This document shows positions 1 to 34,407 of a stretch of DNA of 34,407 nucleotides, piece by piece. Location of the stretch: IMG/VR virus record IMGVR_UViG_2541047772_000007; one strand, given 5' to 3'. This DNA comes from a virus (lineage: Duplodnaviria; Heunggongvirae; Uroviricota; Caudoviricetes; Peduoviridae). Both the position numbers and the translations under genes were made by a program. Every line of letters starts with the position of its first letter. Position 1 is the stretch's first letter. A model generated the notes under the pieces. That model did not search any database and was not told the origin of the DNA. It saw only the letters and a list, made by a program, of their open reading frames with translations.

Positions 1-1362
1 ATGTTTAAACCGGAACTCCTTTCCCCGGCGGGAACGCTGAAAAATATGCGTTACGCTTTCGCTTATGGCGCAGATGCTGTTTATGCGGGCCAGCCGCGTT
101 ACTCCCTGCGTGTGCGCAACAACGAATTTAACCACGAAAATCTCCAGCTCGGCATCAATGAAGCCCACGCGCTGGGGAAAAAGTTTTATGTCGTGGTCAA
201 CATTGCACCGCACAACGCCAAGCTGAAAACCTTTATCCGTGACCTGAAACCGGTGGTGGAAATGGGGCCGGATGCGCTGATTATGTCCGATCCAGGGCTG
301 ATTATGCTGGTGCGTGAGCACTTCCCTGAAATGCCGATCCATCTCTCGGTACAGGCTAACGCCGTGAACTGGGCGACGGTGAAATTCTGGCAGCAAATGG
401 GCCTGACCCGCGTGATCCTCTCTCGCGAGCTGTCGCTGGAAGAGATTGAAGAGATCCGCAATCAGGTGCCGGATATGGAGGTAGAGATCTTCGTTCACGG
501 CGCGCTGTGCATGGCCTACTCCGGTCGCTGCCTGCTCTCTGGCTATATCAACAAGCGCGACCCGAACCAGGGCACCTGCACCAACGCCTGCCGCTGGGAA
601 TACAACGTCCAGGAAGGGAAAGAAGATGACGTTGGCAACATCGTACACAAGTACGAGCCGATTCCGGTGCAAAATGTTGAGCCGACGCTGGGTATCGGCG
701 CACCAACCGACAAAGTGTTTATGATCGAAGAGGCCCAGCGTCCGGGCGAGTATATGACCGCGTTTGAAGATGAGCACGGCACTTACATCATGAACTCGAA
801 AGATCTGCGCGCCATCGCCCATGTAGAACGCCTGACCAAAATGGGAGTGCATTCGCTGAAAATCGAAGGCCGTACCAAATCTTTCTACTATTGCGCACGC
901 ACCGCGCAGGTTTACCGTAAAGCTATCGATGACGCAGCTGCGGGAAAACCATTCGATACCAGCCTGCTGGAAACTCTGGAAGGTCTGGCGCATCGTGGCT
1001 ATACCGAAGGTTTCCTGCGTCGTCATACTCACGACGATTATCAGAACTACGAATACGGTTATTCAGTTTCTGACCGCCAGCAGTTTGTTGGTGAGTTTAC
1101 CGGTGAGCGCAAGGGCGACCTCGCGGCGGTAGCGGTGAAAAATAAATTCTCCGTTGGTGACAGCCTTGAGCTGATGACGCCGCAAGGCAACATTAACTTT
1201 ACCCTTGAGCACATGGAAAACGCCAAAGGTGAAGCTATGCCGGTCGCACCAGGCGATGGTTATACTGTGTGGCTCCCGGTCCCGCAGGATCTTGAGCTAA
1301 ATTACGCGCTCCTGATGCGTAATTTCTCCGGGGAAACCACGCGTAACCCCCACGGTAAGTGA
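1..1362 (+). CDS. yegQ: U32-family peptidase YegQ (host gene)
   Basis: Full 453-aa ORF starting at window position 1; sequence recognised as E. coli YegQ (MFKPELLSPAGTLKNMRYAFAYGADAVYAGQPRY...). Host GC and codon usage. Confidence 0.9.
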   Translation: MFKPELLSPAGTLKNMRYAFAYGADAVYAGQPRYSLRVRNNEFNHENLQLGINEAHALGKKFYVVVNIAPHNAKLKTFIRDLKPVVEMGPDALIMSDPGLIMLVREHFPEMPIHLSVQANAVNWATVKFWQQMGLTRVILSRELSLEEIEEIRNQVPDMEVEIFVHGALCMAYSGRCLLSGYINKRDPNQGTCTNACRWEYNVQEGKEDDVGNIVHKYEPIPVQNVEPTLGIGAPTDKVFMIEEAQRPGEYMTAFEDEHGTYIMNSKDLRAIAHVERLTKMGVHSLKIEGRTKSFYYCARTAQVYRKAIDDAAAGKPFDTSLLETLEGLAHRGYTEGFLRRHTHDDYQNYEYGYSVSDRQQFVGEFTGERKGDLAAVAVKNKFSVGDSLELMTPQGNINFTLEHMENAKGEAMPVAPGDGYTVWLPVPQDLELNYALLMRNFSGETTRNPHGK

Positions 1363-8566: not shown

Positions 8567-9160
8567 TCAATTATGTAAATCTTTTGTTTTATGTTCTTTG
8601 GCGTGTTGTGACAACAAATGGCTATAGCGTTTAAGCAAAATATTAGAAAGATTAAGCTCATTCATGAAGTGTTCTTCTAATAAGTAACCATCAATATCAA
8701 CTTTAATATCATTACCACTTTTCATCTTCTGTAACGTAGATTTTACACGCTCCAGCAGGATGCTTTGCTCATGGTAATAGTCCATAAGAAGAGTAACATC
8801 CTCTTTATCAAGCTTACTTAATTCGCTGAAGTAGGATTTAAACACTTTATCAGTCTGGTTTAATGCAATCTGTAAGCGAGGCCCCCCTAATGATTTGACA
8901 TTAATGGCAAAAGGCTCGCCAACAAAATGCTCCGAATTTTCGTCAAAGCCAATATATCTCGTTTTATCAAGAAAAGTGAGAGCGCGATGGTTATTAGCGA
9001 TTTCATATGCAAACATTGTTCTGATACTGTCCCTCTCAGCCTCCATGCTTATATCATCACGATGATTTGTATAAAATATATTTCCAACAAAGAGAACCAT
9101 AGCAAGAATCACTGAACTTGCCTCCCAGTTAATATTTTTTAATCGTCGCTTAGTAAACAT
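8567..9160 (-). CDS. Hypothetical membrane-anchored protein (197 aa), moron at the Z/fun position between G and FI
   Basis: ATG start preceded by an AAGGTG Shine-Dalgarno; N-terminal basic stretch plus one hydrophobic helix (SSVILAMVLFVGNIFY); strongly AT-rich compared with flanking phage genes; flanked by AT-rich intergenic regions. No family recognised. Confidence 0.7.
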   Translation of the reverse strand: MFTKRRLKNINWEASSVILAMVLFVGNIFYTNHRDDISMEAERDSIRTMFAYEIANNHRALTFLDKTRYIGFDENSEHFVGEPFAINVKSLGGPRLQIALNQTDKVFKSYFSELSKLDKEDVTLLMDYYHEQSILLERVKSTLQKMKSGNDIKVDIDGYLLEEHFMNELNLSNILLKRYSHLLSQHAKEHKTKDLHN

Positions 9161-9381: not shown

Positions 9382-9909
9382 TTATTGCGGCATTTCCGGC
9401 CATTCAGGATTTGCAGGATCCACACGACTGACCAGAACGCTGTAACGCTCCCATGCATCCAGTCGGCTACGCTCCTCATCTGTTGCCATGTTCAGTCTGA
9501 CCGCGCGCTCCAGCGGCAAAATCACGGATTCAGCATCTGCAAGAAGTCTGGCTTTCCGGTTTTCTGCCTGCTGCAGCAATTCCTCTGCCGTATAAATGCG
9601 TTTAATCACTTTGCCGTCCTTAAACATCCAGCCCCCTGAAATGTCCGCCCGTCGGTTAGCAGTAATATCCGCCACTTCAACAACACTTAATCCATCCGGT
9701 CTGATAGCTGTCACATCCTTTTCCACATAGCGGATAATATTATCTTTGTCGTACGCTATTTTTATCGTGTCATCAGCAAAATACTTTTGTTCTTCGTACC
9801 AGTTCTTACCATCTTCTGAAAAAAACCAGACAACATCAAAACCCTTTGTCAATTGATATTGTTCAACCGTTTTTGGATTACCCGCCGTAATATTTTTTAA
9901 ATGCTGCAT
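9382..9909 (-). CDS. G: Tail fibre assembly chaperone G (175 aa)
   Basis: Immediately downstream of H; length matches P2 G; C-terminus ...[27 protein letters not shown] is typical of Tfa chaperones. Confidence 0.85.
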
Positions 9910-9912
9910 AAA

Positions 9913-12666
9913 TTATACCTGCGCCACGTTATACCATGTCCCGTTAATGTATTTCTGAACCGGCCTGTAATATACACCACCAATGTTATCGGCAGAGTTT
10001 GAGCCGGTATCCTGAACAATAATGCCGGAATATACACACCCGGACGGTGCCTGATGTGTCCATGTCATGCCATTGTTCGCAGGTTTGTATGTGGCAGCAC
10101 CACCAAGCCGGATATCCCGGACATAGCGGGAATCAAAGTTACCGTAATCCGAGGGATTAACACGCCCCGTAATATTTATGGTTTTATTACTTTGAATACT
10201 TCCCGAGACAAAGCGCATAATATGGACGCTATTAGCATAAACATCCAGATTACCATCACCATTTTGTTTAAAGCCCGTGTCATTATCACCCAAAACAATC
10301 GAATTACCGCCAAGAGCACTGGATGTTCCTATACCCAGAGCACCATTCAATTGACCACCAGATAACGGCAGTGCACCGACATCTCCCGCTGTAGGTTTTC
10401 GCGTTGTGGTATAAAACTCAGACCAGTCAGCCTCGAATCCGTAACCGTCACGAGCAGAACGATAAAAAATACCACCGTTCTTATAATTAACGCGAAACTG
10501 GGCGGCGGGACAACTTCCTTCCCCGATATTAAAATGAAGAATTAACGTTGATGCCCCACCAATAGTTGCGTTATAGGCTCCGCTACTCCAGTTCCATCCA
10601 ACGGCTTTATCATTCGCAACGGTGTCTCCTGTTTTTCCTGAAGCAAATGCACCAATATTTTTCGGCGTCAGGTTAATATCTGATGTTCCATCAAACGAAA
10701 CGTTATTAATTTTACGGGCTGTTTTCAGCTTTGTTGCTGTCGCCGCATTGCCGGACAGTTCACCAGAAAGGCCAGCACTGAATGTCTGTTTCGCGCCCCA
10801 TGTCTGGGCTTCGTCGATAATTGGCACACGTCTTGTCGTGATCGTGCGGCTTCCCGGATTTCCTGAAATACGCACCATAAAAAAGCGGTAGTTGGCTTTA
10901 CTTACAGTGCTGCGCCATACATGCATTGAGCGTCCCGAACCAGAATCATCACTCGGACCGACTGAGATGTTTATCAGGTTGCCATCAATGACGCCCCAGT
11001 CCATACCGTCGGGAATATTGGTCATGTTATCCAGCCGAACGGTTATCAGACTGCCCGGCACAAAATCGTATGTCTGCCAGTCCAGGCTGGTGAGTTTTGC
11101 CACTGCGCCACCGATACCCAACTCTAACGGCAAAGAGTTTGAGTTATAAATCTGTCGCCACTCCCCCCACGCGTTAAATGAGCCACCAAGAAACACTCGC
11201 TCATATAAACGGTCTTTTGTAGCTGCGCTGGTTCCTGTGGTCGTGTAACGTTGCAAAACATAGACACCATCCTTGCGCCTGATGACTTCCAGAAAACCAG
11301 ACTGCCCCTGGATTGGGGTGTGGGTCGCTTTGCCTGTCACACTGTAAATACCTGGAGACATCAAATCATCCAGGTCATCCTCATAGAAGGTACTACTGGT
11401 CTGATAACCAATTTGGATCCAGTCTTCCCACTGTGGATTTTCTGCATCCCATTTGGCTGTCAGGCCGCGAATATACATAGTCCCGTTACGGGTTGTATAA
11501 CGCTGTGTGCGTCCATATAGCCCACCTTCGAAAATTTCCAGAATGCCCTGCGCGTCTCCTCCCTGCTCGGGGTAATGTCGTTCAAAAGAAGCTATTGCTG
11601 AACTGCTGTTTCTCCATAGACCTAAATGTTCTGCGCCACCGAGAGAGTTAAGGTCAATGGTCGTACTTAGAGCTCGCGTTACAGCCTGAACATGGCGCCA
11701 TGCTCCCCATGGTCCATCATTACCATTCCATGTTCCAATGAGTTTGCGGATATACAAATTTCCGTCACGTGTGGTATAGCGTTGCGTGCCTGCAAAATTG
11801 CCGCCAGTAAAAACCTCAAGCACACCGACAGCATTATCTTCAGGGAAGTTTTTCTCCAGTGTTGCGTTGGTGGACGTTGCTTTAGACCAGATACCTGAAT
11901 AAGCCTTAACAGAACCAAACGTATTCAGATCAGCATCAACCGGCATTTCGCCATTGTTTTTCATAAACGTCAGGCTGGTAACGCCAACATTGTCCAGAAA
12001 AGCTGATTTATCCTGGATATCTGCACCATTCTGATTTTTCGCCAGACGTGAATTTGCGTTGTCATTTGCTGCCTTGACCGCTTTTGGCGTTGCTGCCAAT
12101 GACTCACTGGTGCTGTTTGTTGCACTGCTTAACTGAGTAAAACCTTTTTCTGTCAGCGTGGCGTCAGGATGGCGGCGGGACTGCTCATGCTCTGCGATTT
12201 TGTCATCGACGTAATCCTGCGTCGCCATCACTGTGCTGGCATCAATACTCAGCTCAACGGACGCCACGTTACTGACAATAATAACCATGCGGCAGGTCTG
12301 CGCACGCCCGGAGCCTTCAGCCAGTTCTGGCTTATAGCTTTCAGCCATGTTGGATACCGCAATCAGTGTTCCGGCATCGTCATACAGACCAAGCTCACGC
12401 ATCCAGAAGCCGCCCACTTCGGGCGGTACAACCAGTTCAGCCACGATATAGTTTTTATTCTTGTTATCCACGCTGACTTTATTCAGAGCGTGACGCCAGA
12501 CCTCATGCACCAGTTTCGTCTGACCGGCATCCGGCACCGGCAATTTGCCATTACCGTCACCCACGGCCATTGCAGACAGGGTTACTTTTTTCCCGCCGGG
12601 GACAGTGGCGGCTGCCAGCTTTGCGGCTCCGGCAGTAGTGATAACGGTTTTAAATTTCGTGCTCAT
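9913..12666 (-). CDS. H: Tail fibre protein H (917 aa), mosaic, longer than P2 H
   Basis: The conserved P2-type N-terminus (MSTKFKTVITTAGAAKLAAATVPGGKK...) attaches to the baseplate; the central and C-terminal parts diverge and contain three internal repeats. Confidence 0.85.
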   Translation of the reverse strand: MSTKFKTVITTAGAAKLAAATVPGGKKVTLSAMAVGDGNGKLPVPDAGQTKLVHEVWRHALNKVSVDNKNKNYIVAELVVPPEVGGFWMRELGLYDDAGTLIAVSNMAESYKPELAEGSGRAQTCRMVIIVSNVASVELSIDASTVMATQDYVDDKIAEHEQSRRHPDATLTEKGFTQLSSATNSTSESLAATPKAVKAANDNANSRLAKNQNGADIQDKSAFLDNVGVTSLTFMKNNGEMPVDADLNTFGSVKAYSGIWSKATSTNATLEKNFPEDNAVGVLEVFTGGNFAGTQRYTTRDGNLYIRKLIGTWNGNDGPWGAWRHVQAVTRALSTTIDLNSLGGAEHLGLWRNSSSAIASFERHYPEQGGDAQGILEIFEGGLYGRTQRYTTRNGTMYIRGLTAKWDAENPQWEDWIQIGYQTSSTFYEDDLDDLMSPGIYSVTGKATHTPIQGQSGFLEVIRRKDGVYVLQRYTTTGTSAATKDRLYERVFLGGSFNAWGEWRQIYNSNSLPLELGIGGAVAKLTSLDWQTYDFVPGSLITVRLDNMTNIPDGMDWGVIDGNLINISVGPSDDSGSGRSMHVWRSTVSKANYRFFMVRISGNPGSRTITTRRVPIIDEAQTWGAKQTFSAGLSGELSGNAATATKLKTARKINNVSFDGTSDINLTPKNIGAFASGKTGDTVANDKAVGWNWSSGAYNATIGGASTLILHFNIGEGSCPAAQFRVNYKNGGIFYRSARDGYGFEADWSEFYTTTRKPTAGDVGALPLSGGQLNGALGIGTSSALGGNSIVLGDNDTGFKQNGDGNLDVYANSVHIMRFVSGSIQSNKTINITGRVNPSDYGNFDSRYVRDIRLGGAATYKPANNGMTWTHQAPSGCVYSGIIVQDTGSNSADNIGGVYYRPVQKYINGTWYNVAQV
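11146..11850 (-). repeat. Three tandem repeats of about 60 aa, spaced about 90 aa apart, inside the tail fibre gene H
   Basis: Protein segments at about aa 273-325, 364-420 and 445-507 share the pattern G.LEVF.GG......QRYTTR.G..YIR.......W..W. Seen in the translation. Confidence 0.6.
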
Positions 12667-12676
12667 TGTTTCTCAC

Positions 12677-13207
12677 TTATCCGGGATAAACAGTAATAAC
12701 ATCACCATCACAGACCACACCGCCTGTATACAGACAGCCGGGAATGTCCTGGATAATGTTCAGACCGATAAGGTGGCGACTTGCGGGTTTGGCATCGGCA
12801 ATAAGCCGTTCCATTTCCAGATACATCTCCTCCGTGATGCCGCTTTCCAGCACACCGATATCAAGGCGAAAGGTTCCGGGCGGGTCGTTTGTCTCCCACC
12901 ATTCCTTTACGTTAATGAGATAGCCGAGCGGCTCCACCACACGCCGGATTGCGCCTATAGTGCCCTTATGGCAGTGAATGAAATACGCATCGCGGATAAC
13001 GGCGCGTTTTGTTGCTTCCGGCCACTTTTCATCCCACCTGTCAACAGAAAACGCCCACGCCAGCCACGGCAGCAGATTTGCCGGACAGGTGTCCGGGTTC
13101 CACAGCTCACGAATACTGACCGGCGTTTTTTCAATTTCCGCACAGGCTTTTGCGGCGGCAACTTCAAGCGGTGATGAGCCGGTCGGCAGCAGGCGCGAAT
13201 CACTCAT
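12677..13207 (-). CDS. I: Baseplate protein I (176 aa)
   Basis: Length and synteny with P2 I. Confidence 0.85.
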   Translation of the reverse strand: MSDSRLLPTGSSPLEVAAAKACAEIEKTPVSIRELWNPDTCPANLLPWLAWAFSVDRWDEKWPEATKRAVIRDAYFIHCHKGTIGAIRRVVEPLGYLINVKEWWETNDPPGTFRLDIGVLESGITEEMYLEMERLIADAKPASRHLIGLNIIQDIPGCLYTGGVVCDGDVITVYPG

Positions 13208-24949: not shown

Positions 24950-26035
24950 ATGGGTTACGAAGTTGATTTCTTAGCAGTTGGAGAAAAAAAAAGTGGAGAT
25001 GCTATCTGCATAAGATGGGGCAACCTCCACGGAACAAGAGCAGAGCAAAAAGTTGTCGTAATTGATGCGGGGTACGCAAGCACTGGTCCACAAATAATTG
25101 AACATTTACAGAAATACTATCATACAAATACTATTGACTTACTCATATCCACGCATCCAGATAGCGACCATGCTGGCGGCCTTGAGCATGTGATTGAGAA
25201 TGCGGAAGTCAAAGAGTTCTGGATTCACCAGCCTTGGGAGCATAATGAAAATCTCGCGCAGGAATTTGCTGATGGAAGGATAACAGATGCAAGTATTGCC
25301 AGACGTATACAAGATAATCTACAAAAAGCCTATGATGCCGTCAAATCAGCGAAAAAAAAAGGAATAGAAATTAAGGAGCCTTTTCAAGGCAGGACTTGGG
25401 ACAATTCTAAACTGGTTGTTATTGGACCAACACAAGCATACTATGAAACATTAATCCCCGATTTTGCAAGAATGCCTGAAAAAGCAGAAACAACTGCAAC
25501 CAGTGGTACAGATGCATATAACTACTTTTTTGAGAAAGCCAAAGAACAAGTCGAGTATATTGCTGATTGGTTCTCTGATGAGGGAATTGATGACAAGGAC
25601 ACAACTACTGCACAAAACAATTCAAGCGTTATATTAAAAATTGAAATTGACAATAAAACACTAGTATTTACAGGTGATGCAGGAATAACTGCATTAGATA
25701 TGGCTGCTGATCATATAAATAATAACTCATTATCATTTATTCAAGTGCCCCACCATGGAAGCAGGAGAAACATCGGTCCAGCGGTGCTAAATAAGCTCGT
25801 TGGAAATATTGTAAGCGAAGGAGGAAGAAGTGGTGTTTGTGCATTTATATCATGCGCACCGGATTCCGATAAACACCCTCATCAAGCGGTCATTAATGCT
25901 TTTACAAGGCGTGGAGCCAAAGTAGTCGCCACAGAAGGCACCAATAAACGCCATTCTAGTAATGCCCCCGCCAGAGATGGCTGGACTGCAGTCACCCCAC
26001 GCTCATACGCAAGGAGTTATAAGACTGAAGAATAA
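24950..26035 (+). CDS. ComEC-like metallo-beta-lactamase-fold hydrolase (361 aa), putative nuclease; cargo gene at the P2 tin/old position
   Basis: Motifs in the translation: FLAVGEKKSGDAICIRWG....VVVIDAGY, STHPDSDHAGG (HxDxDH metal-binding motif), LVFTGDAG, VPHHGS. Strongly AT-rich. This ORF is distinct from P2 tin and old (the P2 old product is an OLD-family ATPase-nuclease). Confidence 0.75.
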   Translation: MGYEVDFLAVGEKKSGDAICIRWGNLHGTRAEQKVVVIDAGYASTGPQIIEHLQKYYHTNTIDLLISTHPDSDHAGGLEHVIENAEVKEFWIHQPWEHNENLAQEFADGRITDASIARRIQDNLQKAYDAVKSAKKKGIEIKEPFQGRTWDNSKLVVIGPTQAYYETLIPDFARMPEKAETTATSGTDAYNYFFEKAKEQVEYIADWFSDEGIDDKDTTTAQNNSSVILKIEIDNKTLVFTGDAGITALDMAADHINNNSLSFIQVPHHGSRRNIGPAVLNKLVGNIVSEGGRSGVCAFISCAPDSDKHPHQAVINAFTRRGAKVVATEGTNKRHSSNAPARDGWTAVTPRSYARSYKTEE

Positions 26036-26041
26036 TTCGTT

Positions 26042-26061
26042 AAGCTGCCTTAGGGCAGCTT
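26042..26061. terminator. Bidirectional hairpin between the convergent cargo genes (AAGCTGCC-TTAG-GGCAGCTT)
   Basis: Perfect 8-bp inverted repeat in the short gap between the MBL gene stop and the membrane-protein gene stop; overlaps the last codons of the latter. Confidence 0.5.
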
Positions 26062-26538
26062 ATTATTAGCCTTACTCACTCTTAATGTAATAAACTTAAT
26101 TTGCTTAACGTACGACACAATAAAAACAAAAATCAAAAACAATGAAATCCATTTCGACGCCATGTAATCACCACCAACTACAAACGAAACAAAAAACAAA
26201 GAAAACAAAAAAACCAAGGACATAGAGAATAACGTCCTATACATATTTGCAGTTTCTTGAAGAAGCTCTATTTTATTATCCTTTCTACATGCTGAGATAT
26301 ATTCCTCATATGGAACAAATTTTACCAGCCCCAAAAACTTCAACACAGGCTCAAAAACAATAGACCCAATCCTTCCGATAATTATCCCCGTAAAATAGTA
26401 AAGTACCACATTCTTAACAACATCATCTGTGGATAATATCACATTGGTTGCCCGCTCAAACAAATAAATAAACAAAGCACCGGGAAAGAGATTGTTAAAT
26501 ATATTATAAGACGATATTTTTTCCCATAAACCATCCAT
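26050..26538 (-). CDS. Hypothetical small integral membrane protein (about 162 aa, about four predicted transmembrane helices); second cargo gene
   Basis: ATG (MDGLWEK...) preceded by an AAGGTG Shine-Dalgarno; the track ORF starts 3 codons earlier at a GTG. Hydrophobic segments LFPGALFIYLF, VVLYYFTGIIIGRIGSIVF, LFSMSLVFLFSLFFVSFVVGG, WISLFLIFVFIVSYV. AT-rich, convergent with the MBL gene. Confidence 0.7.
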   Translation of the reverse strand: MDGLWEKISSYNIFNNLFPGALFIYLFERATNVILSTDDVVKNVVLYYFTGIIIGRIGSIVFEPVLKFLGLVKFVPYEEYISACRKDNKIELLQETANMYRTLFSMSLVFLFSLFFVSFVVGGDYMASKWISLFLIFVFIVSYVKQIKFITLRVSKANNKLP

Positions 26539-26653
26539 ACAACACACCTTTTAACCAATTTTAAAGACGCCATTTTCATCAAAAGAAACAAAAATAGCAA
26601 GAACATCAGAACAAACTCTTTGAACACCTGAAAATATTATGTTCCGACACCAT

Positions 26654-28933
26654 TCATTTTGTAAAAGCAGAATATCCCAAACACACATCGATTGTAGGAT
26701 ATATAAACGTCTTCCTGCCATATGTTATGGTAGCCCCTCGCGCCAGCGCCTCAAGCTCCCATCGCTGCGGCCTGATACCGTTCTGAGCAAGGTCAACGCG
26801 GATACGGGTAATTTGCATTCGTTCCGACCGGGTCAGTCTGGCCGATGGCGCTATTTCATGCGGTTTTAACGGGCTTCCGTTTCTTTGCTGACGGTTTGGT
26901 CTTCTCAGGCCGTGTTTTAATGCGCTTCTGAGCGCCCTCACGACCTCCGGGTCATTCCATTCGATAACACCGTCATCAACCAGATTAAGCACTGCTGCGG
27001 CGTGCTCAGAAGGCGTGGGAGCCGGTAACGAAGTATCACCACCGGTGAGCTTTCCACAGTTATTGACAGGACTCCGAGGCGCGGCGATGCCGCTTTTTAA
27101 AGTCAAAGGCTCAACGACCGGAACTTTCGGCACAATGCGCCAGTCCGTCGTTCTGGTGATATGAATATGACGCGCGCCGAGATGCGGCGCGTAAATGCCG
27201 ACCACTCTCTCGACCTCTTCCTCGTACTCGTTAACATCATCCGACGGGCTACGGGCAACCCTGACAGTCTGACAATCACGCGGGACATTTGCCCCACCCT
27301 GCGCGCTGATATACAACGCAAAATCACCACTGTCTGCGGCAGCGCGAGCAGCCTCGACGCGTTCGTCAAACTCATCAGCAATACTGACGCCGCGAGGCAA
27401 TTTGCGTAGTTCACGGTAAGCCCCCATTGTCGGCAGTCCAACCGTTTTAAATTGCGGGATGCGCCACGTTGACGCCCATGCGGTAACAGCCGCGGCAGTA
27501 TCTTTAAGCGGCTTACCGGTATCGTTATCGAGCTGACCATCCAGTGCATAGCCGTCGATATTTTTTGAAATGTATTTCGCGATATATCCCGCAGCACCGC
27601 CCCGGTTAAGGTGTTTTGCCTGAAAACGGTTTCGCGCGGCTCCTCTTTCGTCGCCATCCTCTTTGAGCGCATAGCGGCGCATGATTTCGATAATCTGGTT
27701 ACGCTGGCGTGGATTACAAAAAAGCATCATATGCCAGTGCGGCGTTCCGTCGTGGTGTGGCTCGACGACTCGCAAACCGTAGACCTGTAAATCATTATCC
27801 TTGAATGCCGTGCGCATCAGGCTCCAGATACGGCAGAGATAACGCTGCGCATCCTTTGGATTGAATGCCTCATCATTCCAGCCGTGATTAAGCTGGACGG
27901 TTTTACTTTCGCCTTTTCCGACCTGACGTGTCGGGTGATACTTTGACGGCGCGGTCAGCGTGATAAACATCCCCACATCACCCTCTGCGGCGGCGTAACG
28001 CTCAATACCGGCAATGGTGTTCATCAGCTCCATCCGGCGAATTTCAGGATTAGAAATACTGCCCATCACCTTACTGATAAGGTCGATGCGCTCGCCGGTT
28101 TCCCTGTTTTCAAGGTCACACGATTTAAGAAATTCCAGATTTGCCTGGCGGCGCGCACGCACATCACGAATGGCGTGTTTACTGGCATAAGGAGAACGGT
28201 CTTTATTGACCTCCCCGACAGCTATCAGTAACGCTTCATGCCAGCGCATACGCTGGCCTTTAAGCTGATGAGTCCACCACTCATCGTTAAACAGACGGGC
28301 AATGGCAGAATATGCCTGCCTCGTGGTCATCAGCCCTTTACGGTATTTTTTCCAGTAGAGAGGGGAAATATTGAAAGCACGTGCAGCGCCAGCAACATGA
28401 CCATAGAGGTGAGCCTGCGCCTCATCCGTAAACAGCGATTCTTTTTCGCCATGCGCATCCACCCAGGCATCGCTGAGTTCCTCATACATCATGAAAAGCT
28501 GCGATGAGATACGGGCAGCAAACTTTTTCAGCTCCTTGTCATTCATTCCCGGCAGGCGCGCATAGTGGTCACGCTCTGCCAGAAACAGTAACGACGCGTC
28601 GGTGTTCATTTCATGGCGCTGATTCACACGCTCAATGCGCGGCCATAAACGACGCTGAAAAGTGGATGTGAGGAAATAAAACCCGTGCACCGGGCTTTTA
28701 TTGCGCCGGATGTAGTCATAGCGTGAAGTAAACAGCGAGCGCAAAAAGTAAGGCAGGCGGTTAATCGTGGATAAAACACCTTGCACCTGACGCATCTCGT
28801 CACGTGTAAGAGGTCTTTCGCGCCCGACAGCCTCGCGTGGCGCGTTCCATGCATAAGCACCGGTAAACGCCTTACCGGTGCCTGCGGCAAATGCTGACGG
28901 AGGGACAAAACGCCCGGAGGCTTTAACGGCCAT
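26654..28933 (-). CDS. A: Replication initiation protein A (rolling-circle nickase, about 759 aa)
   Basis: Begins MAVKASGRFVPPSAFAAGTGK... and contains the PHHDGTPHWH HUH-type motif; P2 A-like. The track ORF starts 14 codons upstream (alternative start 28975). Confidence 0.85.
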   Translation of the reverse strand: MAVKASGRFVPPSAFAAGTGKAFTGAYAWNAPREAVGRERPLTRDEMRQVQGVLSTINRLPYFLRSLFTSRYDYIRRNKSPVHGFYFLTSTFQRRLWPRIERVNQRHEMNTDASLLFLAERDHYARLPGMNDKELKKFAARISSQLFMMYEELSDAWVDAHGEKESLFTDEAQAHLYGHVAGAARAFNISPLYWKKYRKGLMTTRQAYSAIARLFNDEWWTHQLKGQRMRWHEALLIAVGEVNKDRSPYASKHAIRDVRARRQANLEFLKSCDLENRETGERIDLISKVMGSISNPEIRRMELMNTIAGIERYAAAEGDVGMFITLTAPSKYHPTRQVGKGESKTVQLNHGWNDEAFNPKDAQRYLCRIWSLMRTAFKDNDLQVYGLRVVEPHHDGTPHWHMMLFCNPRQRNQIIEIMRRYALKEDGDERGAARNRFQAKHLNRGGAAGYIAKYISKNIDGYALDGQLDNDTGKPLKDTAAAVTAWASTWRIPQFKTVGLPTMGAYRELRKLPRGVSIADEFDERVEAARAAADSGDFALYISAQGGANVPRDCQTVRVARSPSDDVNEYEEEVERVVGIYAPHLGARHIHITRTTDWRIVPKVPVVEPLTLKSGIAAPRSPVNNCGKLTGGDTSLPAPTPSEHAAAVLNLVDDGVIEWNDPEVVRALRSALKHGLRRPNRQQRNGSPLKPHEIAPSARLTRSERMQITRIRVDLAQNGIRPQRWELEALARGATITYGRKTFIYPTIDVCLGYSAFTK

Positions 28934-29198
28934 ATGAGCCAAAAGCCTCAGAACAACGCTTGCTGAGTTGCTCAACCTGCGCGTTTAAATCAGCAAAAGA
29001 CTTTGCGCTTCCGGTCAGAATATCGTGATGCATCAGGCCGGAAACGAGCTGGCTTAATTTCGGGTAATAACCAACCACCGCCAGCCATTCCTGACCGGCG
29101 TTTTTACCGCTTTCCGCTCTCTTTTTCTCGTGGAGAATAAACTGAAAGCTGTCACTGGTAACGACATAACGTTCGCCAATTTCGATACGAATACTCAT
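28923..29198 (-). CDS. P2 orf83-like early-operon protein (91 aa)
   Basis: Position immediately upstream of A in the early operon; length as for P2 orf83. Confidence 0.6.
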   Translation of the reverse strand: MSIRIEIGERYVVTSDSFQFILHEKKRAESGKNAGQEWLAVVGYYPKLSQLVSGLMHHDILTGSAKSFADLNAQVEQLSKRCSEAFGSYGR

Positions 29199-31498: not shown

Positions 31499-32512
31499 AT
31501 GGCAATCAAAAAACTCGATGATGGTCGATATGAAGTGGACATCCGCCCTACTGGACGTAACGGAAAACGCATCCGTAGGAAGTTTGATAAGAAAAGCGAA
31601 GCTGTCGCTTTCGAAAAATACACGTTGTACAACCACCACAATAAAGAATGGCTATCAAAACCAACAGACAAACGACGTCTGTCGGAACTGACACAGATCT
31701 GGTGGGATTTAAAGGGTAAACACGAAGAGCATGGGAAATCTAATCTTGGAAAAATTGAAATCTTCACAAAAATAACGAATGACCCATGCGCATTTCAAAT
31801 CACGAAATCCCTTATCAGCCAGTACTGCGCCACCCGAAGAAGTCAGGGTATTAAACCTTCGAGTATCAATCGTGATTTAACATGTATTAGCGGCATGTTT
31901 ACAGCCCTGATTGAAGCGGAGTTATTCTTTGGTGAGCACCCTATCAGAGGGACAAAGAGGCTTAAGGAGGAAAAACCAGAAACAGGCTATCTCACACAGG
32001 AAGAAATTGCCTTACTGCTTGCAGCACTTGACGGCGACAATAAAAAGATTGCGATTCTTTGCCTGAGTACAGGAGCACGTTGGGGAGAAGCAGCTCGTTT
32101 GAAAGCAGAAAATATCATCCATAACCGCGTCACGTTTGTTAAAACGAAAACAAACAAACCACGCACCGTCCCGATTTCAGAGGCTGTTGCCAAAATGATC
32201 GCGGATAACAAACGAGGTTTTTTATTCCCTGATGCTGATTACCCTCGCTTCAGACGAACAATGAAAGCAATAAAACCGGATTTGCCAATGGGGCAAGCCA
32301 CACATGCACTAAGGCACAGCTTTGCCACTCATTTCATGATTAATGGAGGAAGTATTATCACGCTACAACGGATACTAGGTCACACGCGGATTGAGCAAAC
32401 TATGGTTTACGCTCATTTTGCGCCAGAGTACCTTCAGGACGCCATTTCTCTTAATCCGCTAAGAGGTGGTACTGAGGCCGAGAGTGTCCACACAGTGTCC
32501 ACAGTAGAGTAA
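31499..32512 (+). CDS. int: Tyrosine integrase (337 aa)
   Basis: GGAGGG Shine-Dalgarno then ATG; C-terminal catalytic motifs HALRHSFAT and LGHTRIEQTMVYAHF; ends about 80 bp before the att core. Confidence 0.9.
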   Translation: MAIKKLDDGRYEVDIRPTGRNGKRIRRKFDKKSEAVAFEKYTLYNHHNKEWLSKPTDKRRLSELTQIWWDLKGKHEEHGKSNLGKIEIFTKITNDPCAFQITKSLISQYCATRRSQGIKPSSINRDLTCISGMFTALIEAELFFGEHPIRGTKRLKEEKPETGYLTQEEIALLLAALDGDNKKIAILCLSTGARWGEAARLKAENIIHNRVTFVKTKTNKPRTVPISEAVAKMIADNKRGFLFPDADYPRFRRTMKAIKPDLPMGQATHALRHSFATHFMINGGSIITLQRILGHTRIEQTMVYAHFAPEYLQDAISLNPLRGGTEAESVHTVSTVE

Positions 32513-33507: not shown

Positions 33508-34407
33508 ATGGCAGAATTTCCCGCCAGCTTACTGATTCTTAATGGCAAAAGTACTGACAATTTACCATTGCGCGAAGCAATTATGCTGTTGCGTGAGGAA
33601 GGAATGACGATCCATGTGCGGGTCACCTGGGAGAAAGGCGATGCCGCACGATATGTAGAGGAGGCCCGGAAGTTGGGCGTCGCAACGGTGATTGCCGGTG
33701 GTGGCGATGGCACCATTAATGAAGTTTCTACGGCGTTGATTCAGTGTGAGGGGGATGACATACCCGCGCTAGGAATTTTGCCATTAGGAACCGCCAATGA
33801 TTTTGCCACCAGTGTAAGGATTCCTGAGGCACTGGATAAGGCGCTGAAACTGGCAATTGCCGGTGACGCCATTGCGATAGATATGGCGCAGGTCAACAAA
33901 CAAACCTGTTTTATTAATATGGCGACAGGCGGATTTGGGACGCGTATTACCACAGAAACGCCGGAAAAATTAAAAGCCGCGCTGGGTGGCGTCTCTTACA
34001 TCATTCATGGCTTAATGCGCATGGATACTCTGCAACCGGACCGTTGTGAGATCCGCGGTGAAAACTTTCACTGGCAAGGTGACGCCCTGGTCATTGGTAT
34101 TGGTAACGGGCGTCAGGCCGGTGGCGGTCAGCAATTGTGCCCGAACGCGTTAATTAACGATGGCTTGCTGCAACTGCGCATTTTTACCGGCGATGAAATT
34201 CTTCCGGCTCTCGTATCAACATTAAAATCTGACGAAGATAACCCGAATATTATCGAAGGCGCTTCGTCGTGGTTTGATATACAAGCCCCACACGAAATCA
34301 CTTTTAATCTTGATGGCGAACCGTTGAGCGGACAAAACTTTCATATTGAAATACTTCCGGCGGCGTTGCGTTGTCGATTACCACCAGATTGCCCATTGTT
34401 GCGTTAA
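33508..34407 (+). CDS. yegS: Lipid kinase YegS (host gene, 299 aa)
   Basis: [49 protein letters not shown]... with the DAG-kinase-like GGDGT motif; the ORF ends with a stop at the window end. Confidence 0.9.

What the first reader, a model, noticed from the sequence alone, without database searches (positions are those of the whole stretch)
9913..12666. Mosaic, extended tail fibre H with three internal repeats
H has a P2-type N-terminal baseplate-attachment region, but the rest is longer than P2 H (917 aa) and contains three repeats of about 60 aa spaced about 90 aa apart (about 11146-11850) and a distinct C-terminal receptor-binding region, followed by a cognate Tfa chaperone (G). This points to host-range module exchange, and the repeats could mediate recombinational length variation of the fibre.
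Basis: partly seen in the sequence, partly recalled or inferred. Interest (0 to 1): 0.45.

Follow-up and report, generated by a model that had tools for sequence, protein, structure and literature searches.

The report
L-413C-type P2 tail fibre, three knobs
This is an ordinary, already catalogued tail-fibre gene of a P2-like prophage of E. coli: its three internal repeats are real but are ancient protein domains ("knobs"), not DNA repeats, so they do not drive changes in fibre length, whereas swapping of whole modules between related phages does occur.

Summary
H (9913-12666, minus strand) is 917 aa and is followed by a Tfa chaperone, G. It has a P2-type N-terminus (aa 1-207, 84% identical to P2 H).

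It contains three tandem units of about 90 aa: aa 243-335, 336-428 and 429-517 (window 11116-11940). These are far above chance at protein level. By profile search and by fold they are pyocin-knob-like domains.

H is not a new mosaic. It aligns collinearly over its full length with Yersinia phage L-413C H (77%), whose hybrid architecture was published in 2008, and with about 30 deposited Peduovirus genomes (up to 93%). It is present in 163 of 5426 complete E. coli genomes, and the exact protein is already in NCBI.

Module exchange is well supported:
- Among 68 related H proteins the N-terminus forms one allele.
- Knobs R1+R2, knob R3, the middle region and the tip reassort into 25 combinations.
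- Each tip type always pairs with a single type of G N-terminal domain.
- The window copy combines phage-899-type knobs with a P24E6b-type tip plus G.

Repeat-driven length variation is not supported. The units share only 48-54% DNA identity, with exact runs of at most 8 nt. All 63 complete relatives carry exactly three knobs.

The parts
9913..12666 (-). Gene H, tail-fibre protein, 917 aa, of the L-413C type found in Peduovirus
   Evidence: ORF. Full-length collinear matches: 93% to Escherichia phage 899, 90% to P24E6b and 77% to L-413C. The exact protein is already in NCBI.
12214..12666 (-). aa 1-151: N-terminal collar, the baseplate-attachment domain (P2 type)
   Evidence: Pfam Phage_tail_fib, E 1.7e-57. 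It lies within the 84%-identical match to P2 H over aa 1-207. All 68 relatives fall into a single 90% cluster over aa 1-242.
12034..12159 (-). aa 170-211: one Phage_fiber_2 repeat
   Evidence: Pfam PF03406, E 1.6e-20. It also matches Mu S residues 110-176 of PDB 5yvq.
11662..11940 (-). Knob R1, aa 243-335: pyocin-knob-like domain, hypervariable between alleles
11383..11661 (-). Knob R2, aa 336-428: pyocin-knob-like domain, the least variable of the three
   Evidence: Same evidence as R1. Identity to relatives is 64-100%. It co-varies with R1.
11116..11382 (-). Knob R3, aa 429-517: divergent pyocin-knob-like domain that reassorts independently of R1+R2
   Evidence: R1/R3 z=6.7. It scores 17.5 bits against a profile built from R1 and R2 only, versus a shuffle maximum of 10.0. 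Identity to relatives is 43-100%. Five allele clusters reassort against R1/R2.
10831..11115 (-). Domain X4, aa 518-612: a fourth beta-rich domain, conserved, not detectably related to the knobs
   Evidence: The AF2 model shows strands here, with 10-residue pLDDT block means of 68-91 over this stretch. There is no similarity to the knobs (z about 0; hhalign probability 0.1%). Only 2 allele clusters.
10369..10662 (-). aa 669-766: module of the Mu S' (G-minus fibre) type
   Evidence: PDB 8ju3 residues 320-417, domain E 5.7e-49. 83-86% identical to Mu-like phages and P88. Pfam gp37_C gives a weak hit.
10126..10365 (-). aa 768-847: glycine-rich distal shaft shared with P2 H and with T-even and S16 gp37
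   Evidence: 39% identical to P2 H 472-669, with a 68-residue segment of P2 H absent here. Pfam gp37_trimer is below threshold. PDB 6f45, E 2.9e-4.
9916..10125 (-). aa 848-917: fibre tip, the presumed distal receptor-binding end, an exchangeable cassette
   Evidence: 100% identical to P24E6b but 41% to phage 899, P24B2 and L-413C. Matches the phiTE short tail fibre C-terminus (9cuy, E 2.8e-18) and the Mu S C-terminus (5yvq, E 1.6e-12).
9382..9909 (-). Gene G, tail-fibre assembly chaperone (Tfa), 175 aa; its N-terminal half co-segregates with the tip
   Evidence: Pfam Caudo_TAP, E 3e-34. 74% identical to P2 G. Its DNA is 100% identical to P24E6b, against 56-91% for phage 899. Tip and G N-terminal clusters associate perfectly.

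Best explanation
H is the long, L-413C-type allele of the P2-family tail-fibre gene, carried by a complete P2-like prophage of E. coli.

From N- to C-terminus the fibre consists of:
- a conserved collar that plugs into the baseplate (aa 1-151);
- one Phage_fiber_2 repeat (aa 170-211);
- three tandem pyocin-knob-like beta domains (aa 243-517);
- a fourth conserved beta domain (aa 518-612);
- a Mu-S'-like module (aa 669-766);
- a gp37/P2-like distal shaft (aa 768-847);
- an exchangeable tip (aa 848-917).

The downstream chaperone G presumably folds the tip, by analogy with Mu Tfa.

The three repeats are old domain duplications, retained as protein fold and motif only. The same knob triplet, in the same order, occurs in some T-even gp37 proteins.

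Diversity does not come from unequal recombination among the repeats. The pattern fits homologous recombination between different alleles within the nearly identical DNA stretches that flank the variable cassettes. Those conserved stretches are CDS nt 1-720, nt 1530/1890-2520 and the 3' end of G. The independently assorting cassettes are R1+R2, R3, the middle region, and the tip together with the N-terminal domain of G.

Shown here: the anatomy, the domain homology, the breakpoints, the reassortment and the tip-chaperone linkage.

Inferred: the knob loops face outward and help recognise LPS sugars alongside the tip, as proposed for R-type pyocin fibres; the receptor is the LPS core, as for L-413C; and homologous recombination is the exchange mechanism.
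For: Identity and architecture:
- Pfam domains and I-H-G gene order.
- Full-length collinearity with L-413C H (77%), with 30 phage records and with 163 E. coli genomes.
- The exact protein is in NCBI.
- The hybrid L-413C H, with its N-terminal 207 aa and C-terminal 137 aa resembling P2 H, was described by Garcia et al. 2008, as summarised in PMC7460101.

Knob assignment:
- AF2 model of aa 225-630, mean pLDDT 76.6.
- Foldseek hit to the R1 pyocin fibre 6cl5, E 6e-7, and to phi11/80alpha RBPs.
- A sequence profile of the units hits pyocin fibres 6cl5 (E 7e-5), 6ct8 (E 7e-4) and 6cl6 (E 1e-3) and Pa193 gp47 (E 6e-5).
- NCBI names near-identical proteins 'pyocin knob domain-containing protein'.

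Cassette exchange:
- Per-segment identities and DNA breakpoints.
- 25 allele combinations among 68 proteins that share one N-terminal allele.
- One-to-one mapping of each tip cluster onto a G N-terminal cluster. This agrees with the published model in which the variable N-terminal domain of Tfa binds the fibre (PMC9608196).

Surface role of the knobs:
- Variation is concentrated at non-strand positions (Mann-Whitney p=0.0016). [quoted passage not shown]

Receptor: L-413C uses the terminal GlcNAc of the LPS outer core.
Against: - No experiment shows that the knobs bind anything. PMC6116203 also suggests a folding role for knobs.
- The structural evidence comes from a monomer model of a protein that is expected to be a trimer. 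Inter-domain geometry is unreliable (pTM 0.37).
- The C-terminal model failed (mean pLDDT 43), so the tip fold is assigned by sequence matches only.
- Allele clusters were defined with a simple greedy 85-90% threshold.
- The IMG/VR loci were recruited with peptide patterns from the knob/X4 region (aa 225-630) itself, which biases the sample towards three-knob fibres.
Confidence: 0.82

Rival explanations
1. One reading: the three repeats act as recombination substrates, and unequal or intragenic homologous recombination adds or removes units and so changes fibre length.
For: Repeats of the same family lie in tandem. One natural variant with a single knob exists, P0080 of 679 aa.
Against: - DNA identity between units is 48-54%, with longest exact runs of 5-8 nt. 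From general knowledge this is far below what RecA-type recombination needs.
- There are no tandem DNA repeats, and none of the short direct repeats found links the units.
- All 63 complete fibres, plus 5 reference phages and a T-even gp37, have exactly three units.
- H lengths of 840-928 aa differ through the C-terminal modules.
- The P0080 deletion joins the end of R1 to the middle of the unrelated domain X4, with about 3 nt of overlap, in a prophage with a truncated gpI.
Confidence: 0.03
2. The knobs are purely structural. They would act as spacers or folding nuclei that set fibre length and stiffness, without touching the receptor. Host range would be decided by the tip alone, and knob diversity would be neutral drift or hitch-hiking during exchange.
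For: - PMC6116203 notes that knob-like domains, with their multiple hydrophobic cores, probably help trimer folding.
- The same knob triplet sits in the N-terminal part of a T-even gp37 (residues 123-398 of 982).
- The beta-strand cores and the WxxW/QRYTT motifs are strongly conserved.
Against: - Knobs R1 and R3 fall to 43-46% identity in proteins whose neighbouring segments stay at 94-98%. Drift alone does not readily explain this.
- Variation is enriched in predicted loops.
- Knob alleles reassort as discrete cassettes.
- In R-type pyocins Knob2 is the most diverse region and binds ligand mimics.
Confidence: 0.25
3. The apparent repeats are chance or compositional similarity in a glycine-, threonine- and serine-rich fibre protein.
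For: Default BLASTP of H against itself reported only the identity hit. R2/R3 alone is weak (z=3.6).
Against: - R1/R2 z=30 and R1/R3 z=6.7, with 0 of 1000 shuffles reaching either score.
- R3 scores 17.5 bits against a profile built without any R3, versus a shuffle maximum of 10.0.
- The predicted strand pattern is similar in all three units.
- The unit profile finds pyocin knobs in the PDB.
Confidence: 0.01

Closest known systems
Yersinia phage L-413C gpH/gpG (Peduovirus L413C; Garcia et al. 2008, as summarised in PMC7460101)
   Same: It is collinear over the full length (913 vs 917 aa, 77% identity) and has the same junction with P2 H at aa 207. It carries the same three knobs, the X4 domain and the Mu-S'-like module, and has a 175-aa G. 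It is experimentally shown to be the receptor-binding protein, and its receptor is the LPS outer core.
   Different: Knobs R1 and R3 are only 46% and 43% identical, and the tip is 41% identical. The L-413C tip and G N-terminal domain fall in the cluster shared with phage 899 and P24B2, and its G N-terminal cluster also includes P2. The window carries the P24E6b type.
Bacteriophage P2 gpH (669 aa) and gpG
   Same: The genomic position V-W-J-I-H-G is the same. The N-terminal 207 aa are 84% identical, the last 150 aa are 39% identical, and G is 74% identical.
   Different: P2 H has no knob units (no hit). It has two Phage_fiber_2 repeats and a Gp34_trimer segment instead. Aa 208-767 of the window protein have no P2 counterpart.
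Knob1/Knob2 domains of R1/R2 pyocin fibres (PDB 6CL5, 6CL6, 6CU2; Buth et al. 2018, PMC6116203)
   Different: There are three knobs rather than two. [quoted passage not shown] Ligand binding is untested here.
Distal long-tail-fibre subunit gp37 of some Tequatrovirus phages (vB_VIPECOOM01, Shigella phage JK23)
   Same: The same block (end of the collar region, three knobs in the same order, X4) is 49-56% identical over H aa 121-634.
   Different: The phage family differs, as do the attachment end and the tip. The gene downstream of gp37 in vB_VIPECOOM01 is annotated 'tail fiber protein; host specificity' rather than a Tfa. The divergence is too great for a recent donor.
Mu tail fibre S/S' with Tfa (PDB 8JU3, 5YVQ)
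   Same: Aa 669-766 match the S' fibre at domain E 5.7e-49, and 83-86% identity to Mu-like phages is seen by tblastn. The C-terminal tip and the Tfa principle are shared: a variable N-terminal domain binds the fibre tip and the C-terminal domain is conserved.
   Different: No invertible G segment or second S'/U' gene pair is evident here: G is followed downstream by the 8567-9160 cargo ORF and then the tail-sheath gene.

Membership tests
P2-family tail fibre gpH (Peduovirus) | N-terminal tail-collar/baseplate-attachment domain (Pfam PF12571) | tested here: met
   PF12571 covers aa 1-151, E 1.7e-57. Aa 1-207 are 84% identical to P2 H.
P2-family tail fibre gpH (Peduovirus) | Position in the V-W-J-I-H-G operon, with a Tfa gene immediately downstream | tested here: met
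   gpI (Tail_P2_I) lies at 12677-13207 and G (Caudo_TAP) at 9382-9909, on the same strand. The P2 order is given.
P2-family tail fibre gpH (Peduovirus) | Collinear with canonical P2 H along its whole length | tested here: not met
   Only aa 1-207 and aa 768-917 align. The 560 aa between them have no P2 counterpart.
L-413C-type long gpH | Full-length collinearity with L-413C H, including the junction with P2 H at aa 207 | tested here: met
   77% identity over 924 aligned columns with 18 gap positions. The published architecture is summarised in PMC7460101.
Pyocin knob domain (R1/R2 pyocin Knob1/Knob2) | Fold of an antiparallel beta-sheet domain of about 85-90 aa, similar to solved pyocin knobs | tested here: met
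Pyocin knob domain (R1/R2 pyocin Knob1/Knob2) | Sequence-profile homology to a solved knob | tested here: met
   Profile A2 against PDB sequences gives 6cl5 E 7.3e-5, 6ct8 E 7.3e-4, 6cl6 E 1.1e-3 and Pa193 gp47 E 5.7e-5. No knob family hit was found in the Pfam or NCBIfam copies available.
Pyocin knob domain (R1/R2 pyocin Knob1/Knob2) | Forms a trimeric knob with loops outward and binds saccharide | not testable with these tools
   Only monomer prediction is available. The indirect support is that variability is enriched in non-strand positions (p=0.0016).
Tfa / Caudo_TAP tail-fibre assembly chaperone (gene G) | Caudo_TAP domain, gene directly downstream of the fibre gene, and a variable N-terminal domain matched to the fibre tip | tested here: met
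   PF02413, E 3e-34. The gene lies 3 nt downstream of H. Each of 8 tip clusters maps to a single G N-terminal cluster among 67 pairs. The published model is in PMC9608196.
Recombinogenic tandem DNA repeats (contingency-type length variation) | Enough DNA identity between units for homologous or slipped recombination | tested here: not met
   48-54% identity, with longest exact runs of 5-8 nt. TRF and the repeat finder report nothing that links the units.
Recombinogenic tandem DNA repeats (contingency-type length variation) | Copy-number polymorphism among close relatives | tested here: not met
   All 63 complete fibres have three units, as do all the references. The single one-knob variant is an out-of-register deletion with about 3 nt of overlap at the junction.

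The most novel reading that the evidence does not exclude
The knob block may be a second receptor-recognition site that can be exchanged independently of the tip. It comprises two cassettes, R1+R2 and R3. P2-like fibres of this type would then read the cell surface combinatorially: knob loops would recognise one LPS or O-antigen feature laterally and the tip another distally, and phages would re-sort the two by recombination at conserved linkers. This has been proposed for R-type pyocins. To my knowledge it has not been demonstrated for P2-like phages.
Probability: 0.35. Interest if true: 0.4.

Novelty: already known. Interest (0 to 1): 0.2.

Why it matters
The practical value is modest. The analysis gives a clean domain and cassette map, with window coordinates and breakpoints, of a very common E. 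coli prophage fibre. That map could guide engineering of P2-like phages, or of pyocin-P2 fibre fusions, by swapping knob cassettes or tip+G cassettes at natural junctions. It also removes a tempting but wrong idea: protein-level repeats in fibres do not imply DNA-level instability. Nothing here changes current understanding of tail-fibre evolution. It is a textbook example of the horizontal module exchange recognised for P2, Mu, P1 and T-even fibres since the early 1990s.

Tried and rejected
- Default BLASTP of H against itself returned only the identity hit. The repeats needed a windowed dot-plot and gapped alignment with shuffles.
- TRF and the DNA repeat finder found nothing relevant in the gene.
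- NCBIfam gave no hit for H or for any unit. Pfam has no model that hits the units. The 'pyocin knob' label seen on database relatives therefore had to be tested by structure and by a home-made profile.
- I tested whether the region after R3 (X4, aa 518-612) is a fourth, degenerate repeat. It showed no similarity (z about 0; hhalign probability 0.1%), so the idea was rejected at sequence level.
- The AF2 model of the C-terminal 317 aa failed (mean pLDDT 43), so it was not used for a fold search. The C-terminal assignment rests on sequence matches to solved chains.
- The single-knob protein P0080 looked at first like support for repeat-mediated length change. Its DNA junction and genomic context argue against that.
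- A text search of the BASEL collection paper for Peduoviridae or P2-like fibres found nothing useful.
- T-even gp37 was considered as a recent donor of the knob block. It was rejected because identity is only 49-56%.
Full report
**What is at the coordinates**

The ORF at 9913-12666 (minus strand) encodes 917 aa. It sits between gpI (12677-13207, Pfam Tail_P2_I) and a 175-aa Caudo_TAP protein (9382-9909), on the strand that also carries the P2-like V-W-J genes.

The window as a whole is a complete P2-like prophage. It includes an integrase (31499-32512) and the gpA replicase (26654-28975). It lies between a host peptidase-U32 gene (1-1362) and yegS (33508-34407).

Pfam finds four domains in H:
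- Phage_tail_fib at aa 1-151;
- one Phage_fiber_2 repeat at aa 170-211;
- a weak gp37_C hit at aa 677-752;
- a sub-threshold gp37_trimer hit at aa 803-849.

**The repeats are real, but they are protein domains**

- An ungapped 40-residue window at diagonal offset 93 scores 119, against a maximum of 53 in 50 shuffles.
- With non-overlapping units, gapped local scores are R1/R2 179 (z=30), R1/R3 59 (z=6.7) and R2/R3 44 (z=3.6; 6 of 1000 shuffles reach it).
- A profile built only from R1- and R2-type units scores the window's R3 at 17.5 bits, while 1000 shuffles reach at most 10.0 bits.

The units are contiguous: aa 243-335, 336-428 and 429-517, which is window 11116-11940. These are separated by variable loops of the same domain. 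The next 95 residues (X4, aa 518-612) form a further beta-rich domain in the model. X4 shows no similarity to the units.

**What the units are**

An AlphaFold2 model of aa 225-630 has mean pLDDT 76.6, and about 80-88 inside the units.

Foldseek against the PDB gives the receptor-binding proteins of staphylococcal phages phi11 and 80alpha, and the R1 pyocin fibre 6cl5 (E 6e-7).

- phi812 and phi11 proteins;
- phage K gp144;

Independently of the model, a sequence profile of 16 units hits several PDB sequences:
- R1 pyocin fibre 6cl5, E 7.3e-5;
- R2-type fibres 6ct8 (E 7.3e-4) and 6cl6 (E 1.1e-3);
- the Pseudomonas phage Pa193 fibre, E 5.7e-5.

The same motifs line up in these alignments. NCBI already names many near-identical proteins "pyocin knob domain-containing protein". 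The repeats are therefore three tandem pyocin-knob-like domains.

**Is H a novel mosaic?**

No. Against canonical P2 H (669 aa) only two regions align:
- aa 1-207, at 84% identity;
- aa 768-917, at 39% identity, with a 68-residue segment of P2 H absent here.

G is 74% identical to P2 G.

H is collinear over its whole length with Yersinia phage L-413C H (913 aa, 77%). Thirty phage records cover at least 80% of H. The best are Escherichia phage 899 at 93% and Peduovirus P24E6b at 90%.

The H-G DNA covers at least 80% of the query in 163 of 5426 complete E. coli genomes, with a best identity of 98.6%. The exact 917-aa protein is deposited under several NCBI accessions.

The hybrid nature of L-413C H was described by Garcia et al. 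in 2008. Its N-terminal 207 aa and C-terminal 137 aa resemble P2 H, and its middle is mosaic. Its role as the receptor-binding protein has been shown experimentally (PMC7460101). Its receptor is the terminal GlcNAc of the LPS outer core.

**Sources of the other modules**

- Aa 669-766 match the Mu S' fibre (PDB 8ju3, domain E 5.7e-49) and are 83-86% identical to Mu-like phages and P88.
- The tip (aa 848-914) resembles the C-terminus of the phiTE short tail fibre (9cuy, E 2.8e-18) and of Mu S (5yvq). It also resembles fibres of rV5-like and CR8-like phages at 44-61% identity.
- The block aa 121-634, including all three knobs in the same order, is 49-56% identical to gp37 of some Tequatrovirus phages.

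Per-segment identities to five relatives fall into three groups:
- the collar is 98% identical, and the shaft and middle region (aa 613-847) are 96-100% in the four relatives that share the window's C-terminal type (all except P24A7b);
- R1 ranges 46-94%, R2 64-100% and R3 43-100%;
- the tip is either 100% or 41% in those same four relatives (4% in P24A7b).

At DNA level:
- The window is 97-100% identical to phage 899 from about CDS nt 720 to nt 2520.
- It is 100% identical to P24E6b from about nt 2251 to the end of G.
- In that last stretch phage 899 falls to 32-87%.

The window copy therefore combines 899-type knobs with a P24E6b-type tip and chaperone.

I analysed 62 complete H genes recovered from IMG/VR, the window copy and five reference phages:
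- Aa 1-242 form a single 90% cluster.
- R1 has 4 clusters, R2 has 4, R3 has 5, the middle region has 8 and the tip has 5.
- These occur in 25 combinations.
- R1 and R2 co-vary, while R3 and the tip reassort.

Each of eight tip clusters pairs with exactly one cluster of the G N-terminal 110 residues. This fits the published model in which the variable N-terminal domain of Tfa binds the fibre tip and the C-terminal domain is conserved (PMC9608196).

**The repeat-recombination idea fails**

- The three units share 48-54% nucleotide identity, with longest exact runs of 5-8 nt.
- TRF and the repeat finder report nothing that links them.
- All 63 complete fibres have three units. H lengths of 840-928 aa vary through the C-terminal modules.
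- The one shorter form found, P0080 (679 aa, one knob), is a 744-nt in-frame deletion from the end of R1 into the unrelated X4 domain.
- That deletion has about 3 nt of overlap at the junction. The prophage carrying it has a truncated gpI gene and lies next to yegS/yegR.
- This is illegitimate deletion, not repeat-mediated exchange.

**Likely function**

By analogy with R-type pyocins, the knob loops probably contribute lateral contacts with LPS sugars, and the tip makes the distal contact. [quoted passage not shown] Consistent with this, variability among relatives is higher at non-strand than at strand positions of the knobs (one-sided Mann-Whitney p=0.0016). This step is inference. A purely structural role for the knobs remains a live rival.

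**Limits**

- The structural evidence uses a monomer model of a presumably trimeric fibre (pTM 0.37).
- The C-terminal model failed (mean pLDDT 43).
- The IMG/VR sample was recruited with peptide patterns from the knob/X4 region (aa 225-630), so it cannot reveal fibres that lack that region.

**Verdict**

It is the known L-413C-type allele of P2 gpH with three pyocin-knob-like domains and its cognate Tfa. It is a good illustration of cassette exchange in fibre genes, with no evidence that the repeats themselves are recombinogenic.

Noticed in passing
window 24950-26547: This is a divergent, low-GC gene pair (GC about 0.38-0.42). A 361-aa protein with a metallo-beta-lactamase fold (24950-26035, plus strand) matches PADLOC PDC-M48B (E 6e-99). 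A 165-aa protein (26050-26547, minus strand) matches PDC-M48A (E 7e-49). Together they are a candidate anti-phage defence pair, lying immediately beside the gpA replicase gene (26654-28975).
   Followed up: partly
window 8567-9160 (minus strand): A 197-aa low-GC ORF lies between G and the tail-sheath gene, the position where P2 carries fun(Z). It belongs to PHROG 3829 (function unknown), and some records name it 'lysogenic conversion protein'. It has no Pfam or PADLOC hit. The exact sequence was seen on 744 contigs.
   Followed up: partly
window 1-1362 and 33508-34407: The prophage is flanked by a host peptidase-U32 gene and by yegS. A prophage carrying the one-knob H deletion variant (P0080) and a truncated gpI lies next to yegS/yegR in another E. 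coli genome (locus L008). This suggests the same integration site is used repeatedly.
   Followed up: no
L008 1501-3540 (protein P0080): This is a natural in-frame 744-nt deletion variant of this fibre type. It keeps knob R1 and fuses it to the second half of domain X4, followed by a Gp34_trimer segment and a tip resembling those of P24B2, phage 899 and L-413C. Whether it still assembles a working fibre is unknown.
   Followed up: partly
L006 2471-5419 (Escherichia phage vB_VIPECOOM01 gp37): A T4-like distal long-tail-fibre subunit carries the same three knobs plus X4 in the same order (gp37 residues 123-398; 49% identity to H over H aa 121-634). The knob triplet therefore predates its presence in P2-like fibres, or was exchanged between the two phage families long ago.
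   Followed up: partly
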